Shown here in pieces: positions 37,882 to 41,984 of a DNA stretch of 64,000 nt. The DNA is from an uncultured delta proteobacterium (GTDB taxonomy: Bacteria; Desulfobacterota; Desulfobacteria; Desulfobacterales; UBA11574): assembly GCA_963731025.1 (NCBI GenBank), contig CAVSVL010000016.1, positions 60,354 through 124,353 of the forward strand. Direction: 5' to 3'. The notes under the pieces are model-generated. The model saw only the letters and a list, made by a program, of their open reading frames with translations. It was not told where the DNA came from and did not search any database. The position numbers and the translations under genes were made by a program. Position 1 is the stretch's first letter, and each line of letters opens with the position of its first letter.

Positions 37882-37902
37882 GGGACGTACATTAGTTTAT
37901 AA
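37882..37902 (-). repeat. REP family 1, left flank of RAYT-like gene 1
   Basis: GGGACGTACATTAGTTTATAA, inverted relative to 38953-38973. Confidence 0.75.
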
Positions 37903-37907
37903 CTTCA

Positions 37908-38915
37908 TTATGTGTCAAAAAGCAAAAAATTATTCTGTTTAACCACTTTCTCTCCCCGTTTAACTGCCATACTTATTGCCGGTTGAGAAATGGAAAACTT
38001 TTTTGCCAAAACGCTCTGACTGATGCCAATCTCGCGCATTGCCCAATAGCATGCGACACTGCGAGCCTCCACAACTTTTTTATATTTGCCTGGTGATAGG
38101 ACCTCATCACGTTCTAAACCCATTATCTCCGATACGCGACCAACCACCGTGTCAAAATCATACCCCTCGGCTTTCAGGCGGTATTTTAATTCAAGATCTT
38201 CCTTGGCCTTTGCCAATATGCTTTCAACAAAGTCCCCGCCACCTAGAATACGTTCATCACCTTTCATATAAGCCCCAACTTTTCGCAAAGCTTTCACAGC
38301 TGACCAACCACCCAAACTGCGAACTAATCCTCCACCGACAAGTTCGGGCCGTCTTCCCTGAGCCATCCCTTTTTTAACAAATTCTTGATAACCGATGCGG
38401 GCTTTTGAAACTTTCTTTGCAAACATTCTAAGAACATATTCCGTATTTTGCCAGTTGTTCTTTTGCTTTCTTAAAATCACGGCATGACCGCAATACGGAT
38501 ACTTATTCAATGCCCTCAAATTGTTTACAATGCCGGCACGAAGGGGATTTAGATGAATGTATCGAACTAACTCTAAAAGATAGGTATCTTCCTGGCATAG
38601 AATCGATTTGTAACGGTTTTGAAAAAGATGGCCATATCGACGATGACGCCTATTAAAAGAAACTGCATAACCGGTGAGCAACCGACGCATCACTGTAGAA
38701 ATTGGGGTTGTCCCCGTCTTCATGAGTAAATGAAAATGATTCGGAATTAATGCCCAGGCAAAGCAGTGCGTCTTGGTCTCTTCTATGATATCGCCCAGCC
38801 GTTCTAAAAAGTTGTCCCTATCCTTATCATCCTTAAATATGTTTTTGCGATCAATGCCTCTGGCTATAATGTGATGAAGAGCCCCTGGTGTATCTATTCT
38901 TGATTTACGTGGCAT
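37908..38915 (-). CDS. RAYT-like HUH (Y1, IS200-like) transposase with C-terminal DnaA-domain-IV-like HTH
   Basis: GALHHIIARG, HUH motif PNHFHLLM, Tyr motif RYIHLNPLRAG. C-terminal EARSVACYWAMREIGISQSVLAKKFSISQPAIS. Confidence 0.8.
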   Translation of the reverse strand: MPRKSRIDTPGALHHIIARGIDRKNIFKDDKDRDNFLERLGDIIEETKTHCFAWALIPNHFHLLMKTGTTPISTVMRRLLTGYAVSFNRRHRRYGHLFQNRYKSILCQEDTYLLELVRYIHLNPLRAGIVNNLRALNKYPYCGHAVILRKQKNNWQNTEYVLRMFAKKVSKARIGYQEFVKKGMAQGRRPELVGGGLVRSLGGWSAVKALRKVGAYMKGDERILGGGDFVESILAKAKEDLELKYRLKAEGYDFDTVVGRVSEIMGLERDEVLSPGKYKKVVEARSVACYWAMREIGISQSVLAKKFSISQPAISMAVKRGEKVVKQNNFLLFDT

Positions 38916-38952
38916 ATGACTCCCATATCAAAGGATCTTTACTCATGTCAAC

Positions 38953-38973
38953 TTATAAACTTATGTACGTCCC
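38953..38973 (+). repeat. REP family 1, right flank of RAYT-like gene 1
   Basis: TTATAAACTTATGTACGTCCC. Confidence 0.75.
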
Positions 38974-38998
38974 CTATTTCCGCTAATCACTTGTTCCG

Positions 38999-40866
38999 TT
39001 ATTTTAGATGATCTTCCGTATACAATGAGAGTTCGATCATCCGTTCGAGAAGCTCGTCCGACTGAAGGCCTGGGAAATTGTAAAAAACCAATTCTTTGCA
39101 GAACAGGCGACAAATATAGCGTAGCTTGCGGCTCTTTTGCTTGCCTGCATACACGAAGTCTCTATGACCGTTGTTAATGACAATTACGTTCTTTTCTACA
39201 TCGAATTTTGAACGCCACATCTCCGAGGGTGCCCGTCGATAAGTATAGCCTGGGAAGCCCTTTGCGCGATCCTCCTGTCAAGGCGGATTGATCAACAATC
39301 GAGTCGGTAACGGTGATCAGTGCCTCATCGTTGCATTCGATTTCTCCCTGGCAAACAATAAGCCTTAATGTAGTCAGACCCGGCTCCGGAGGAGCAATAA
39401 AAACAACGGATTCACCATCGTGGTTCAAAAGTTGACCTTCTCCGTCAACGATTTCCCACCGATATAGCAGATCCTTCCAAACGGTTCGTCGAGCGCGATC
39501 CCGGCAAACAGCTCGATATTTCTTGCGTCTGTCAACCGGAACAACGCTCGATTTCGGAGAAATCAACACACTGAACAGGGGACCGGCATATTCATAGAAC
39601 TCTTTACGTCCCTCTTGGATGTCGTCATCTTCAAAGGCGGTTTCGAGCATCTCACTTTCCCGGTCTTTTAGGCCCGGAGCGGCACCCGTTTCCGATGCTA
39701 AAGAAAAAAGAGCGTCTGTCTTCTTTTTACTTTTTCTGCCATGAATATCGAACCAGTCATATTCCTCTTGAGGAAGACGCAGAAACGCTTCCTTGAGAGC
39801 ACGCTGAACCTTGCGTAAAATTCGTCCGGCTGGACCGTTCTTCTTCCGCCTTGCGCTGTTCCTCGATAATTCGTTGTAACTGATTTTCAACCGGCTCCAT
39901 TGCACGGCAAAAAGCGTCAAACTTCTCATCACGAATGATACCTTGTCGCGTCCCCGGAGTAATGTTTAAGAATGTTGCATCAAGAATGCCTTGTAGATAA
40001 CCCGCGGTCCACGGTTCCTTCTGAAAGTTTTCGATATCCGTAATCGATGGCAAAATCCGCGTTCCGCTTCGATACAATCCAACCTGGTTGGCAGAACCGG
40101 GATCACTGAGGTACAGTTCCAGGTAAATATCACCCGGAGCACCCTCGACAGGTTTGAGGCCATGGAGCAGGCGCCCGGTGAACTGACGAGGAACAACAAT
40201 ATACTCTGCTCTACCTGTCCGATCCACCACTTTGATCTGTACCCCCGACTCTTTGATCCTGTCCCTGAGTTCGGCCGAAAGATACCGCTGGATCTTTTCC
40301 CCCGTAAGAGATCGCAGCCCCGGCAACAGGGGATAGATTGTCAAATCTGTTCCTTTGAAAGGAATCAATATACGTTTCTTGGAAACCGTGAAGTTCTGCG
40401 AGTCTTTGGTCATGGTCATTTCATATGTATTTCTATCGACTCCGCAAGAGGTGATACTAAGGTTCCGGCCAACTGTCCAAAAGCTTAAAAGACCGATCCC
40501 GAATTCACCTTGGATCCCCTTTACACCTTCCCCCTTCAATCGTCGCTTTATAGAATCGCAAATGTGGGTCGCCACGTGATGAAAATTGGGCAACCCATTT
40601 CTATCTTTTAAGATTCCTTCACCGTCGTCACTGATCTTGAGATAAAATTCTCCCTTCTTCTTTCCCCTGGTAATGACGATTTGTCTGGCCCGAGCATCGA
40701 TGCTGTTTTCCACAAACTCAGCCACCGCTTTCAGCGGATTGGCTTGCGAGCTGGCAATGATGCTAATCGCATTCCAGTGATCTGCTATACGCAGCTTTTT
40801 TGGAGGAGCTTTCTTTTTTTTTCTTTTTCGAACTGATCTCGCCACCTCTAACCTCCCAACGACCAA
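38999..40866 (-). pseudogene. GHKL (HATPase_c_3 / MORC-like) ATPase gene with two frameshifts
   Basis: Three overlapping ORFs in three frames. N-terminal AVAEFVENSIDA...ISDDGEGI...GEFGIGLLS. Frame junctions near 39845 (GAAGAAGAA) and 39258 (AAAGGG) both restore a continuous sensible sequence. Confidence 0.65.
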
Positions 40867-40868
40867 TA

Positions 40869-40894
40869 GGGTCGCATCTTAAATATTAATTATT
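40869..40894 (-). repeat. REP family 2, left flank of RAYT-like gene 2
   Basis: GGGTCGCATCTTAAATATTAATTATT; overlaps the last codons of the gene. Confidence 0.75.
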
Positions 40895-41853
40895 CGCTTT
40901 TTGAGCCGATTTATCTTGCCCTTCAATCGCCGGTTGTTTTGAATTTCCTTTGAAATGTGATTGTGCCTTAGCGTAATGCCGGCCCCGGATATGTTGCCGA
41001 AGTATCGCCCCAGCTCGACCCCGCTTTCTCCGCTGAGATCGCGGCACAGATAAATCGCCACATCCCTCGCCAAATTTTTTTTGCGACCTTTTTGTAAAAT
41101 CAGATGGCGGTGGCAATTAAATTCGTTGCAAACCGCAGCGACGATCTCATCAGGAGTTAATCGTGGTTTGAGACTCGTTAACTGGGGTATCTCCCTTTCT
41201 TTTGACCGTTCAGCCAAAAAGGAGTCCTTCACCCAGTCAACAAATTCAGCGCCGCCCAAAATAAAGCCGGCCGTTATTTCCTTGGCCGGATTTTCAAGTT
41301 TGGTGCTATCAATGGTTTCGACGAAAGTCTGATAATTTCCGGCAGCCGATTTGCGTTTTTTCCCGAATAAAGATAGCAGCCAATCCGTCTCGAGCCATTG
41401 AGGAACTTTCACCTTACCGACAAAAGCCAGGTAGCTGCTCCATTTATACTCCGGCAATACCTCCACTATTTTCGCCCGCAACGGATTAAGGTGAATATAA
41501 CGCGAAAGGTGTTTTAAGTATTCATCGGCATCGACCAAAATGGATTTGAACCGTCCTTGAAACAAATGGCCCGTTCTTCGCCGCTTACGGTTAAAATAGG
41601 CGGCATAGCTTACATTGATCCATTTTATGGCCTGGCTTAAGTTTGGGTGGGGAGTTTCGACAAGTAAATGGTAGTGGTTGCTCATCAGACAATACGTATG
41701 AACTTTAATCTCATAGCGTTCAACAGTATTGGCTAGATATTCTAAAAATCTTTCCCGGTCCCTGCTGCTTATAAAGATGTCTTCGCCGGCATTTCCGCGA
41801 TGCATCACATGATAAAAAGCGCCGGGATATTCTACTCTCAAGGGGCGTGCCAT
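40879..41853 (-). CDS. RAYT-like HUH (Y1) transposase, second paralogue, with DnaA-IV-like HTH
   Basis: GAFYHVMHRGN, HUH SNHYHLLV, RYIHLNPLRAK. C-terminal ARDVAIYLCRDLSGESGVELGRYFGNISGAGIT. Confidence 0.8.
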   Translation of the reverse strand: MARPLRVEYPGAFYHVMHRGNAGEDIFISSRDRERFLEYLANTVERYEIKVHTYCLMSNHYHLLVETPHPNLSQAIKWINVSYAAYFNRKRRRTGHLFQGRFKSILVDADEYLKHLSRYIHLNPLRAKIVEVLPEYKWSSYLAFVGKVKVPQWLETDWLLSLFGKKRKSAAGNYQTFVETIDSTKLENPAKEITAGFILGGAEFVDWVKDSFLAERSKEREIPQLTSLKPRLTPDEIVAAVCNEFNCHRHLILQKGRKKNLARDVAIYLCRDLSGESGVELGRYFGNISGAGITLRHNHISKEIQNNRRLKGKINRLKKRIINI

Positions 41854-41956
41854 AAATTCAACCCCATACAAAAATTTTCAAAACCTGGTTATCATTCTGC
41901 AGTTAAAAGCGGATGAAAAATAAAAGGGTAGGATATCGGACAGGTAAAAAAATGTC

Positions 41957-41984
41957 AATAATTAATATTTAAGATGCGACCCCC
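41957..41984 (+). repeat. REP family 2, right flank of RAYT-like gene 2
   Basis: AATAATTAATATTTAAGATGCGACCCCC. Confidence 0.75.

What the first reader, a model, noticed from the sequence alone, without database searches (positions are those of the whole stretch)
37882..41984. Two RAYT-like HUH transposases, each bracketed by its own cognate inverted REP pair
Gene 37908-38915 (HUH NHFHLL; Tyr motif RYIHLNP) is flanked by GGGACGTACATTAGTTTATAA and the inverted TTATAAACTTATGTACGTCCC. Gene 40879-41853 (NHYHLL; RYIHLNP) is flanked by a different pair, GGGTCGCATCTTAAATATTAATTATT and AATAATTAATATTTAAGATGCGACCC. The family-1 core (..CTTAWAA..TTAAG.ACGTCCC and the ..TTTAAGGGGC variants) recurs at least 25 times in the window. 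Positions include 3241, 5545, 26265, 29469, 30044, 31706, 45001, 45049, 47475, 50683, 50719, 51914, 57571, 58319, 58372, 58597, 59128, 60922, 62051 and 63950. Family 2 recurs at 33703, 36202 and 47209. This is the REP/RAYT (REPtron) layout. The proteins, however, are ~330 aa with a C-terminal DnaA-domain-IV-like HTH, about twice the size of the RAYTs I know. Two cognate protein/REP pairs sit 2 kb apart. REPs abut many truncated genes (KH fragment 37870, 45.0 kb, 58.3 kb), suggesting recent activity.
Basis: partly seen in the sequence, partly recalled or inferred. Interest (0 to 1): 0.75.

Follow-up and report, generated by a model that had tools for sequence, protein, structure and literature searches.

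The report
Two TIRYT transposase genes with repeats
Two distantly related RAYT-like single-strand DNA transposase genes, each carrying a DnaA-type DNA-binding tail and flanked by its own non-palindromic inverted repeats, sit either side of a decayed ATPase gene in a Desulfobacterales defence island; this "TIRtron" layout has been described before, but here the repeat ends mark fresh rearrangement junctions.

Summary
Genes 37908-38915(-) and 40879-41853(-) each encode a Y1 HUH nuclease domain plus a C-terminal DnaA-domain-IV-like HTH. They are 32% identical. Each is bracketed by its own inverted repeat, and both repeat types recur in the window where none is expected by chance.

The repeats do not fold, so they are not palindromic REPs. 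They are terminal inverted repeats starting GGGG(A/T)CG. This is the published TIRtron/TIRYT arrangement (Di Nocera 2013), which matches TnpA-REP subclass 2.1 with a Bac_DnaA_C tail (Quentin 2018). The large size and the HTH are therefore not new.

Added evidence:
- Homologs at 57-99% identity keep TIRs at fixed distances, and the TIR interior co-diverges with the protein.
- The exact 21-mer occurs in 114 loci of public MAGs labelled mostly Desulfobacterales or Deltaproteobacteria.
- MITE-like deletion derivatives with identical breakpoints occur in several MAGs.
- Sister contigs from one metagenome show rearrangement junctions exactly at TIR outer boundaries.

Verdict: a new member of a known but biochemically uncharacterised kind. 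It is probably still active and scatters single ends through a variable defence island. Interest is moderate.

The parts
37874..37906 (+). LE-A: left (gene-distal, 3'-side) terminal inverted repeat of TIRtron A. Core is GGGACGTACATTAGTTTATAA at 37882-37902, 5 nt from the stop codon of gene A.
37908..38915 (-). Gene A: TIRYT, 335 aa. Y1 HUH domain (H60, H62, Y119 invariant in homologs), disordered linker at about 187-234, and a DnaA-domain-IV-like HTH at about 250-330.
38950..38981 (-). RE-A: right (promoter-side) TIR of TIRtron A. Core at 38953-38973, 37 nt upstream of the ATG. A TTGACA hexamer abuts its inner end.
38999..40866 (-). GHKL (HATPase_c_3) ATPase gene lying between the outer ends of RE-A and LE-B. 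It is frameshifted twice in the window. It is intact (614 aa) in sister contigs L001 and L002.
40869..40902 (+). LE-B: left TIR of TIRtron B (GGGTCGCATCTTAAATATTAATTATT...). It overlaps the last five codons and the stop of gene B.
40879..41853 (-). Gene B: TIRYT, 324 aa (Y1_Tnp + Bac_DnaA_C), 32% identical to A.
41949..41993 (-). RE-B: right TIR of TIRtron B, core 41957-41982. The repeat unit extends outward to ...GAAAGACATGG (41993), as shown by four independent contexts. A promoter-like TTGACA-17-TATCCT at 41958-41930 overlaps its inner end.
45053..45073 (-). Solo F1a copy, RE-type (inner flank resembles the gene A leader). The synteny break with L001 lies at its outer boundary (45080/45081).
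50687..50707 (-). Solo F1a copy, RE-type, directly followed by an F1b copy (50719-50742) in the same orientation.
51918..51938 (-). Solo F1a copy, RE-type, attached to a ~250-nt duplicate of the 5' end of a paralogous gene (repeat D1, 51689-51870).
58316..59128 (+). Patch of stacked LE-type F1a copies (cores 58326, 58380, 58603), each carrying a different length of its original inner flank. 58316-58356 carries the 41-nt repeat unit only. 58372-58592 copies 59128-59348. 58593-59128 copies 60918-61453. The patch is absent from sister contigs L164 and L001, where an intact 310-aa gene lies instead.
59136..59156 (+). Solo F1a copy, LE-type, at the 3' end of the NUDIX / PDC-M59A-like gene pair. Synteny with L001 and L164 breaks at its outer boundary (TGTTCTAC|GGGACG, 59128).
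60928..60948 (+). Solo F1a-variant copy, LE-type, at the 3' end of the TumE/HVO_A0114 toxin-antitoxin-like pair.
26268..26291 (-). F1b sub-family copy (GGACGnnCTTAACATnTTAAGTTT). Other F1b copies lie at 29472-29495(-), 31709-31732(-), 47477-47500(-), 50719-50742(-) and 62054-62077(+). No cognate gene is in the window.
45000..45026 (-). F1c sub-family copy (GGGACGCCCCTYAAATTATAAGTTT). Other F1c copies lie at 3241-3267(-), 5546-5572(-), 30044-30066(-, degenerate), 57566-57592(+) and 63945-63971(+). No cognate gene is in the window.
47209..47244 (-). Solo F2 (B-type) copy, RE-type, exact 26-mer plus the GAAAGACATGG outer extension.
33702..33780 (-). F2' variant: a B-type repeat interrupted by a ~36-nt hairpin-forming insert. 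A second copy lies at 36201-36279(-).
47161..47195 (-). F3 repeat (GGGGACATCCTATATTCCC...), a third GGGGWC-led family. Another copy lies at 35316-35335(+). It is truncated after 12 nt in L001, where it is fused to the outer boundary of the F1a copy.

Best explanation
The region holds two TIRtrons. Each is a RAYT-like Y1 (HUH/Tyr) single-strand DNA transposase gene of the TIRYT type, fused to a DnaA-domain-IV-like HTH. Each is bounded by its own ~25-35-bp non-palindromic terminal inverted repeat beginning GGGG(A/T)CG. The two units flank a passenger GHKL ATPase gene, which has decayed in the window.

**Proposed mechanism (inferred, not shown).**
- The C-terminal HTH docks the protein on the double-stranded, AT-rich inner part of its cognate TIR. 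In A this part is a tandem ATAAGTTT/ATAAGTTG repeat. It also overlaps the -35 box of the gene's own promoter, which would allow autoregulation.
- The HUH/Tyr domain then nicks and rejoins one strand at or near the conserved G-rich outer end.

**Expected products, acting in cis and in trans.**
- Whole-element copies.
- Two-ended MITE-like deletion derivatives.
- In this genome, mainly solo ends that carry variable lengths of their inner flank and are pasted next to other ends.

The result is a dense set of GGGGWC-led repeats (about 30 in 64 kb) sitting at the boundaries of gene cassettes in a strain-variable defence island.
For: **Protein identity**
- Pfam Y1_Tnp plus Bac_DnaA_C.
- Best NCBIfam model is REP_Tyr_transpos; IS200 is weak or absent.
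- AF2 model has confident N- and C-domains. The top PDB fold match is RAYT 4ER8 (E 3e-6, TM 0.72 on the target). The C-domain matches the DnaA DNA-binding domain 3PVP (TM 0.69, rmsd 2.0 A).
- HUH histidines and Y119 are invariant in 22 homologs.

**TIRs are functional rather than accidental**
- In 14 of the 18 loci with a full-length A homolog (57-99% identity) an inverted pair was detected; in 13 of them the upstream arm ends 29-44 nt before the ATG, and in all 14 the downstream arm ends 0-15 nt after the end of the protein match (the other four: two with both flanks available showed none, two had a flank cut by the contig end).
- The arms nearly always begin GGGACG, usually GGGGACG, and the interior differs in the 57-60% homologs.
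- A 68% homolog of B keeps GGGGTCGCATCTT... TIRs.
- The exact A-type 21-mer occurs in 114 loci of public MAGs, labelled mostly Desulfobacterales or Deltaproteobacteria.

**Mobility**
- MITE-like derivatives with identical internal breakpoints (reference positions 142/1058 and 119/846) occur in several different MAGs, twice in one locus.
- 42 of the 114 loci carry full or fragmentary A-type genes next to the TIR.
- In sister contig L002, homology to the window starts exactly at the RE-B outer boundary and truncates a B12-binding gene. In the same contig an RE-type F1a copy cuts gene A at codon 231.
- The 58316-59128 patch is three stacked copies of 'LE + 41/221/536 nt'. Its junctions lie exactly at LE outer boundaries. 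It is absent from L164 and L001, which keep an intact 310-aa gene there.
- The synteny breaks between the window and L001 fall at repeat copies at 45080, 47244 and 59128.

**Published class**
- TIRYT/TIRtron and subclass 2.1 (PMC3733652, PMC6006769).
Against: - No biochemistry exists for any TIRYT. The nick site, the strand and the role of the HTH are all inferred.
- Quentin et al. note that the TIR consensus does not resemble a DnaA box.
- The TIR motif here (GGGGACGT, GGGGTCGC) fits only 6 of the 8 positions of the published GGGGWSAS.
- The protein scores fall just below NCBIfam's RAYT cut-off (74.7 and 70 against 80).
- I found no target-site consensus or duplication at the junctions.
- The B-type homolog in the Olavius Delta-1 symbiont sits at one fixed locus in 10 samples. 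That pattern is RAYT-like and sedentary rather than IS-like.
- The rearrangements could come from host recombination or replication slippage that merely favours these repeats.
- A genome-wide census for the window's own genome was not possible.
Confidence: 0.7

Rival explanations
1. Classical REPtron/REPIN system. A domesticated single-copy RAYT recognises hairpin REPs and mobilises REP doublets (REPINs).
For: - The RAYT-like fold and the best NCBIfam model support it.
- The flanking repeats are inverted and belong to dispersed families.
- One B-type homolog is single-copy at a fixed locus across samples.
Against: - The repeat units do not fold: F1a and F2 give 0 to -1.7 kcal/mol with z >= 0, apart from one stem in unique flank at LE-B.
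- There is no GTAG tag.
- No close inverted doublets occur in the window. Clusters are in direct orientation.
- Gene-bearing copies, gene fragments and MITEs in many genomes indicate that the gene-plus-TIR unit itself moves.
- The protein carries an extra HTH domain that RAYT 4ER8 lacks.
Confidence: 0.08
2. Sedentary, domesticated genes whose repeats are host regulatory or structural elements, such as promoter/operator modules or cassette boundaries. On this view the repeats spread and rearrange by host recombination and replication slippage, not by transposase action.
For: - RE-type copies lie upstream of genes, with TTGACA at their inner edge.
- F1c copies contain TATAAT.
- Tandem 'stutters' of the outer end look like slippage.
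- One homolog has a fixed single locus.
Against: - LE-type copies sit at the 3' ends of genes, where a promoter role is unlikely.
- The junctions have no homology on the non-TIR side and fall exactly at TIR outer boundaries.
- MITEs with identical breakpoints occur in different genomes.
- The catalytic residues are invariant across thousands of homologs.
- The promoter scan is not above chance: 6 sites found against 7.3 expected.
Confidence: 0.15
3. Ordinary IS200/IS605 insertion sequences with LE/RE hairpins.
For: Pfam Y1_Tnp hits. ISDra2 and IS608 TnpA are secondary fold matches.
Against: - NCBIfam transpos_IS200 scores 19 bits for B (cut-off 55) and gives no hit for A.
- The ends are inverted repeats without hairpins.
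- No tnpB companion gene is present.
- The proteins are about 330 aa with an added HTH.
Confidence: 0.03

Closest known systems
TIRtron / TIRYT (Di Nocera, De Gregorio & Rocco 2013, BMC Genomics 14:522; PMC3733652)
   Same: - A RAYT-like Y1 gene flanked by non-palindromic terminal inverted repeats at fixed short distances, some overlapping the 3' end of the gene.
- A G-rich terminal motif.
- TIRs that in some genomes form moderately abundant families occurring as singles, dimers or groups.
- Several TIRYT genes with distinct TIR families in one genome.
   Different: - The terminal motif here is GGGG(A/T)CG(T/C), which matches GGGGWSAS at 6 of 8 positions.
- The host is a member of Desulfobacterales, to judge by the nearest public MAGs (98.5% identity). 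I saw no Desulfobacterales among the species named in the passages of that paper that I read, but I did not see its full species list.
- Two different TIRtrons bracket a passenger gene.
- Solo ends carry variable inner flanks stacked in direct orientation.
TnpA-REP subclass 2.1 (2.1.2) of Quentin, Siguier, Chandler & Fichant 2018 (BMC Genomics 19:475; PMC6006769)
   Same: - Long Y1 proteins with a C-terminal Bac_DnaA_C-like HTH.
- No REP hairpins near the gene.
- That paper equates the subclass with the TIRYTs.
   Different: Assignment to the subclass is by domain architecture only. I could not place A and B in their tree. They report no dispersed repeats for this subclass, whereas dispersed families are evident here.
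REPtron: RAYT/TnpA-REP with REP/BIME/REPIN (Nunvar 2010; Bertels & Rainey 2011; Ton-Hoang 2012; structure 4ER8)
   Same: - The catalytic fold (best PDB match).
- The gene is bracketed by inverted copies of a repeat that is dispersed in trans.
- Distinct protein-repeat pairs can coexist.
   Different: - The repeats are not hairpins and carry no GTAG.
- No REPIN doublets.
- An extra dsDNA-type HTH domain.
- Gene-carrying units and gene fragments are themselves multi-copy across genomes.
IS200/IS605 (IS608, ISDra2) peel-and-paste elements
   Same: - Y1 HUH chemistry.
- Asymmetric left and right ends, with the element boundary several nucleotides outside the recognised motif.
- Strong orientation bias of the copies.
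   Different: - Ends are inverted repeats rather than subterminal hairpins.
- No tnpB.
- The protein is twice as long.
- No conserved tetranucleotide target was found.
IS91/ISCR rolling-circle elements (one-ended transposition). Comparison from general knowledge, not tested here.
   Same: Copies share one precise end and carry variable lengths of adjacent DNA, and they accumulate next to one another.
   Different: Those enzymes are Y2 HUH proteins with ori/ter ends. Here there is a single catalytic Tyr motif, and the ends are inverted repeats.

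Membership tests
TIRtron/TIRYT | RAYT-like Y1 HUH protein (HUH plus catalytic Tyr, closer to RAYT than to IS200 TnpA) | tested here: met
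   - Motifs NHFHLL/NHYHLL and RYIHLNP are present.
- REP_Tyr_transpos is the best NCBIfam model. IS200 scores 19 bits or nothing.
- The top fold match is 4ER8.
TIRtron/TIRYT | Gene flanked by terminal inverted repeats that are not themselves palindromic | tested here: met
   - Inverted arms of 21-34 nt.
- Single-strand folding no better than shuffles for the A ends and RE-B; the LE-B stretch gives z -1.84 from a stem in unique flank.
- An inverted pair was detected in 14 of 18 loci with a full-length homolog.
TIRtron/TIRYT | TIR terminal motif GGGGWSAS | tested here: inconclusive
   F1a GGGGACGT and F2 GGGGTCGC match GGGGWS but not the last two positions. F3 GGGGACAT matches 7 of 8.
TnpA-REP subclass 2.1.2 | C-terminal extension with Bac_DnaA_C / HTH_23 / HTH_28 similarity | tested here: met
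   - Pfam Bac_DnaA_C: B scores 38.4 bits, above the gathering score. A scores 23.4 bits, below it.
- phmmer hits to DnaA structures at E 2e-4 to 5e-4.
- The modelled C-domain matches the DnaA DNA-binding domain 3PVP.
TnpA-REP subclass 2.1.2 | Placement inside the subclass 2.1 clade of the published tree | not testable with these tools
   The reference sequences and tree are not available here.
REPtron (RAYT + REP/REPIN) | Flanking and dispersed repeats are imperfect palindromes (hairpins) with a conserved GTAG-type tag | tested here: not met
   F1a and F2 units fold at 0 to -1.7 kcal/mol, z 0 to +1.3; the only stronger value, at LE-B (-5.1 kcal/mol, z -1.84), comes from a stem in unique flank. 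Only the F1b variant has a 6-bp stem, not significant at z -1.8.
REPtron (RAYT + REP/REPIN) | Dispersed copies mostly as inverted doublets (REPINs) | tested here: not met
   In the window, neighbouring copies are in direct orientation: 45026/45073, 50707/50742 and 58326/58380/58603.
REPtron (RAYT + REP/REPIN) | Protein reaches the curated RAYT model threshold | tested here: inconclusive
   NF047646 scores 74.7 bits (A) and 70.0 bits (B) against a cut-off of 80.
REPtron (RAYT + REP/REPIN) | Single-copy, vertically inherited gene | tested here: inconclusive
   - One B-type homolog sits at a fixed locus in 10 samples.
- Against that, the B-ATPase-A module occurs in two contexts in one sample.
- Gene fragments and MITEs occur in many MAGs.
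IS200/IS605 | TnpA matches the IS200 family model; ends carry subterminal hairpins; frequent tnpB | tested here: not met
   NF033573 scores 19 bits (cut-off 55) or gives no hit. No hairpins. No tnpB-like ORF nearby.

The most novel reading that the evidence does not exclude
The TIRYTs carry out one-ended, end-primed copying. A strand is cut exactly at a TIR outer boundary, travels with a variable stretch of the adjoining DNA, and is pasted next to another TIR end. Repeated rounds would stack 'TIR + gene piece' units in direct orientation and leave stuttered end duplications. They would also swap cassettes in a defence island. That amounts to an ISCR- or integron-like gene-accretion system run by a Y1 HUH enzyme guided by a DnaA-type HTH.
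Probability: 0.2. Interest if true: 0.7.

Novelty: new member of a known kind. Interest (0 to 1): 0.4.

Why it matters
In the literature I searched, none has been studied biochemically. It is not known whether they move DNA, what they cut, or what the DnaA-like domain does.

This locus, with its near-identical sister contigs from the same metagenome, works as a natural experiment:
- Two divergent protein/TIR pairs lie side by side.
- The TIR ends are precisely delimited.
- Fresh junctions fall exactly at those ends.
- MITE derivatives exist in related genomes.

That gives concrete substrates for cleavage and specificity assays. It also suggests that these elements help to reshuffle defence islands in sulfate-reducer genomes. 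It does not reveal a new kind of system.

Tried and rejected
- **Hairpin/REP reading.** I folded both strands of every end type. F1a and F2 showed no structure.
- **RNA genes.** A default tRNA scan and an Rfam scan of the whole window found nothing, so the repeats are not known RNA elements.
- **Extra copies.** tblastn for further Y1 genes or fragments in the window found none.
- **Three-gene system.** I tested whether the GHKL ATPase is an obligate partner. Homologs were found in only two other TIR-bearing loci, without a Y1 gene, though also beside TIR-type repeats. There was no PADLOC hit. I treat it as a passenger.
- **Multi-copy test.** I hoped the 12 contigs carrying P0149 were copies within one genome that would define the element ends. 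They turned out to be one locus seen in many samples.
- **Target site.** I looked for a target-site consensus or duplication at about 10 junctions and MITE flanks and saw none.
- **Promoters.** The scan was not above the shuffle expectation. The promoter idea rests only on the conserved position of TTGACA.
- **IS110 insertion point.** I first read the IS110 insertion as lying exactly at ...CCTA| of the F3 repeat. Other F3 copies show that the repeat continues beyond that point. L001 may therefore carry a deletion instead.

Full report
**1. What is there**

The interval holds two minus-strand genes.
- Gene A is 37908-38915, 335 aa.
- Gene B is 40879-41853, 324 aa from its ATG. Public gene calls use TTG 41871, giving 330 aa.

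Both carry the HUH motif (NHFHLL in A, NHYHLL in B) and the tyrosine motif RYIHLNP. Pfam finds Y1_Tnp at residues 14-121 and Bac_DnaA_C at the C-terminus of each. The best NCBIfam model is REP_Tyr_transpos, at 74.7 and 70.0 bits against a curated cut-off of 80. The IS200 model scores 19 bits for B and nothing for A. The two proteins are 32% identical, and tblastn finds no other copy or fragment in the window.

I built an AlphaFold2 model of A from 22 homologs (mean pLDDT 75.9).
- The N-domain (about 13-186) and the C-domain (about 250-330) are confident. They are joined by a disordered linker.
- The best PDB match is the E. coli RAYT-REP hairpin complex 4ER8 (E 3e-6, TM 0.72 on the target), followed by ISDra2 and IS608 TnpA.
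- The C-domain matches the DnaA DNA-binding domain 3PVP (TM 0.69, rmsd 2.0 A).
- phmmer also links both C-termini to DnaA domain IV.

**2. The repeats**

Gene A is bracketed by GGGACGTACATTAGTTTATAA at 37882-37902(+) and its inverted copy at 38953-38973(-). Gene B is bracketed by GGGTCGCATCTTAAATATTAATTATT at 40869-40894(+) and 41957-41982(-).

Counts in the window, each with none expected in shuffles:
- A-type 21-mer (F1a): 10 copies at <=3 mismatches.
- F1b: 6 copies plus one indel variant.
- F1c: 6 copies.
- B-type (F2): one exact solo copy at 47209, and two variants interrupted by a ~36-nt hairpin insert at 33702 and 36201.
- Further GGGGWC-led families: F3 (GGGGACATCC...) and F4 (GGGGTCGGACCACGG...).

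In all there are about 30 such ends in 64 kb, almost all of them between ORFs.

**3. They are not REPs**

Folded as single-stranded DNA, the F1a and F2 units give 0 to -1.7 kcal/mol, with z-scores of 0 to +1.3 against shuffles. The single exception is the stretch around LE-B, at -5.1 kcal/mol and z -1.84, whose 5-bp stem lies mostly in unique flank outside the repeat. Only F1b has a 6-bp stem, and it is not significant. There is no GTAG tag. Neighbouring copies are in direct orientation, not inverted, so there are no REPIN-like doublets. The repeats are terminal inverted repeats.

**4. This class is already described**

Di Nocera et al. 2013 named RAYT-like genes flanked by TIRs 'TIRYT', and the units 'TIRtrons'. 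They reported a shared terminal motif, GGGGWSAS. They found TIR families of moderate abundance occurring as singles, dimers or groups. They also described genomes with two TIRYT genes and two TIR families.

Quentin et al. 2018 defined TnpA-REP subclass 2.1. It contains long proteins with a C-terminal Bac_DnaA_C, HTH_23 or HTH_28 domain and no REPs nearby. They equated it with the TIRYTs.

Bertels et al. 2017 describe a large, widely distributed RAYT 'Group 1' with the most IS-like behaviour among RAYT groups. I infer, but did not test, that it is the same lineage.

**5. Comparative evidence that the TIRs are functional and cognate**

Both proteins have thousands of full-length homologs at 63-99% identity. 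Those that carry a source name are mostly from MAGs labelled Desulfobacterales, Deltaproteobacteria or Thermodesulfobacteriota, with single labels such as Syntrophales, Anaerolineales and Nitrospirota. Many lie on 1-3 kb contigs.

I examined 18 loci with a full-length A homolog at 57-99% identity.
- An inverted pair was detected in 14. In two others both flanks were available but none was found, and in two a flank was cut by the contig end.
- In 13 of the 14 the upstream arm ends 29-44 nt before the ATG (103 nt in L056); in all 14 the downstream arm ends 0-15 nt after the end of the protein match.
- The arms nearly always begin GGGACG, usually GGGGACG.
- The interior of the TIR differs in the 57-60% homologs, so it co-diverges with the protein.

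A 68% homolog of B in the Olavius Delta-1 symbiont keeps GGGGTCGCATCTT... arms.

The exact A-type 21-mer occurs in 114 loci of a one-genome-per-species collection. The listed records are labelled mostly Desulfobacterales or Deltaproteobacteria, typically with 3-7 copies per MAG. Forty-two of those loci hold a full or fragmentary A-type gene beside the repeat.

TTGACA sits at the inner edge of the promoter-side arm in most copies. For B the promoter-like site is TTGACA-17-TATCCT. The scan as a whole is not above chance.

**6. Evidence for mobility**

(a) In other MAGs there are MITE-like derivatives of about 190 nt (reference positions 1-142 joined to 1058-1115) and about 385 nt (1-119 joined to 846-1115). 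Their internal breakpoints are identical in several genomes, and one type occurs twice in one locus.

(b) Sister contigs from a single metagenome (ERZ25039500) are 99-100% identical to the window over long stretches (a few blocks 94-97%) but are arranged differently.
- L002 carries B-ATPase-A in another context. Homology starts exactly at GAAAGACATGG|GGGTCGC, and that boundary truncates a B12-binding gene. In L002, gene A is cut at codon 231 by an RE-type F1a copy.
- L001 matches window 30877-45080 at 99.8%. It then jumps to the F3/F2 copies of 47.2 kb, skipping an IS110-family element. After that it carries entirely different defence genes until the F1a copy at 59128.
- L164 and L165 give two further arrangements.

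(c) The window segment 58316-59128 is a stack of three LE-type copies with 41, 221 and 536 nt of their original inner flank.
- The 536-nt copy is 100% identical to its source and the 221-nt copy 99.5% (one mismatch).
- Each unit starts exactly at the LE outer boundary (TGTTCTAC|GGGACG or CGCGTTCTAA|GGGACG).
- The units are joined to unrelated sequence on the other side.
- L164 and L001 lack this stack. L164 encodes an intact 310-aa SLFN-helicase/S24 protein at that place, and the window retains only a 115-aa remnant. The stack is therefore the derived state.

(d) RE-type copies at 29.4, 50.6 and 51.8 kb each carry the same ~200-nt 5' piece of a paralogous gene.

(e) The outer end is often 'stuttered'. 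Of 123 A-type copies in public genomes, 33 have another GGGAC within 30 nt outside, against 1 of 116 in a control window. Fourteen are strict tandem duplications of 6-11 nt of flank plus the first 3-14 nt of the TIR. Window examples lie at 58357-58381 and 57511-57536. I have no tested explanation for this.

**7. Surroundings**

The window comes from a member of Desulfobacterales; the nearest public copy of gene A is 98.5% identical, in a Desulfobacterales MAG. GC skew is negative throughout, and 45 of 56 large ORFs are on the minus strand. Both TIRYT genes run with the majority.

LE-A abuts a KH-protein C-terminal fragment and a tRNA-like remnant.

Between the two TIRtrons lies a GHKL ATPase gene.
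- It is frameshifted twice in the window and intact in L001 and L002.
- It holds 16 of the 25 differences between the window and L001.
- It is not a constant partner of TIRYTs and is not in PADLOC.

The 45-64 kb stretch is a defence island. It contains a C5 methylase, a GajB-like UvrD-PDDEXK protein, NERD and HNH genes, a PDC-M59A-like gene with NUDIX, and a TumE/HVO_A0114 pair. Vsr is named from the sister contigs' tables, not scanned in the window.

RE-type copies, with the outer end at the higher coordinate, dominate from 3 to 52 kb. LE-type copies dominate from 57 to 64 kb. Each type lies with its inner side towards a neighbouring gene.

**8. Mechanism**

Shown:
- The domain architecture and the conserved catalytic residues.
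- Conserved, cognate TIRs that do not form hairpins.
- Precise end boundaries several nucleotides outside GGGGWCG.
- Two-ended MITEs.
- One-ended copies with variable inner length.
- Junctions at the outer boundaries.

Inferred:
- The HTH binds the double-stranded, AT-rich inner half of the TIR. That position would also let it repress its own promoter.
- The HUH/Tyr domain nicks at the G-rich outer end and transfers the strand.

The one-ended stacks suggest that a cut at a TIR boundary can be joined next to another TIR end, with the far end of the mobilised piece resolved non-specifically. Host slippage or recombination at these repeats remains a live alternative for some of the events.

**9. 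Verdict**

This is a new member of a known, uncharacterised class. Its value is as an unusually informative locus for working out what TIRYTs do.

Noticed in passing
window 45081-47169 (transposase 45575-46861, +); leader repeat 17165-17233: An IS110-family element (DEDD_Tnp_IS110 + Transposase_20) lies between the F3 and F1a repeat copies. It is absent from sister contig L001. Its 69-nt upstream leader recurs at 17165-17233 (91%), which suggests a second, degraded copy.
   Followed up: partly
window 37675-37757 (-) and 37760-37879 (-): A tRNA-like remnant, called only at a relaxed ARAGORN threshold as tRNA-Arg(TCT), lies next to a C-terminal fragment of a KH-domain protein. Both sit immediately outside LE-A. 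This may be an old island integration site.
   Followed up: partly
window 38999-40866 (-): The GHKL (HATPase_c_3) ATPase gene has two 1-nt insertions relative to the intact 614-aa gene in L001 and L002. It carries 16 of the 25 differences found over the 14.2 kb shared with L001, which is a local excess of change.
   Followed up: partly
window 33702-33780 and 36201-36279: B-type repeats are interrupted by a ~36-nt insert that forms a 12-bp hairpin (DNA fold z -2.25). The same variant occurs in another metagenome contig (L126). This may be a tiny nested element.
   Followed up: no
window 58059-58169: A tandem array of five ~23-nt units (ATTCCGATTGATCGCGAACAGC), just inside the remnant of the truncated S24-like gene and next to the stack of LE copies.
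   Followed up: no
window 58357-58381 and 57511-57536; 33 of 123 copies in loci L003-L116: Short tandem 'stutters' duplicate the outer flank plus the first bases of the TIR (periods 12-24 nt). An extra GGGAC lies within 30 nt outside in 27% of copies, against 1% in a control window.
   Followed up: partly
window 45-64 kb versus L001, L164, L165: Four different gene orders of the same defence island coexist in one metagenome sample (McrBC-like, SLFN-helicase/S24, Fic, RVT_1+Trypsin_2, UvrD-PDDEXK and other genes). Several of the breakpoints fall at repeat copies.
   Followed up: partly
loci L024, L029, L039, L041, L072, L083 (type 1); L071, L104, L111 (type 2): MITE-like internal-deletion derivatives of the A-type TIRtron have identical breakpoints in different MAGs. 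Type 1 retains the first 24 codons of the gene.
   Followed up: yes
19 loci, e.g. L057 55-150, L077, L082, L107: A ~95-nt conserved unit consists of the A-type TIR followed by GTTGACGTGGTAATTGAACTGAAGAACGTAGTTGAC. It has no adjacent Y1 gene and is found in many MAGs, including bins labelled Omnitrophota, Bacteroidales and Gammaproteobacteria. Some copies have a variable G-rich insert.
   Followed up: partly
window 23338(-), 33660(-), 57658(+): Another repeat family, GGGGTCGGACCACGGTAACCATATATAATAATTGA (F4), is embedded in a ~107-nt repeat (23236-23342 / 33558-33664).
   Followed up: no
L166-L175 (Olavius algarvensis Delta-1 symbiont and related samples): A 68%-identical B-type gene sits at one fixed locus, between an RHS-repeat gene and a spermine-synthase-like gene, in 10 independent samples. 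This is a sedentary pattern that contrasts with the window's lineage.
   Followed up: partly
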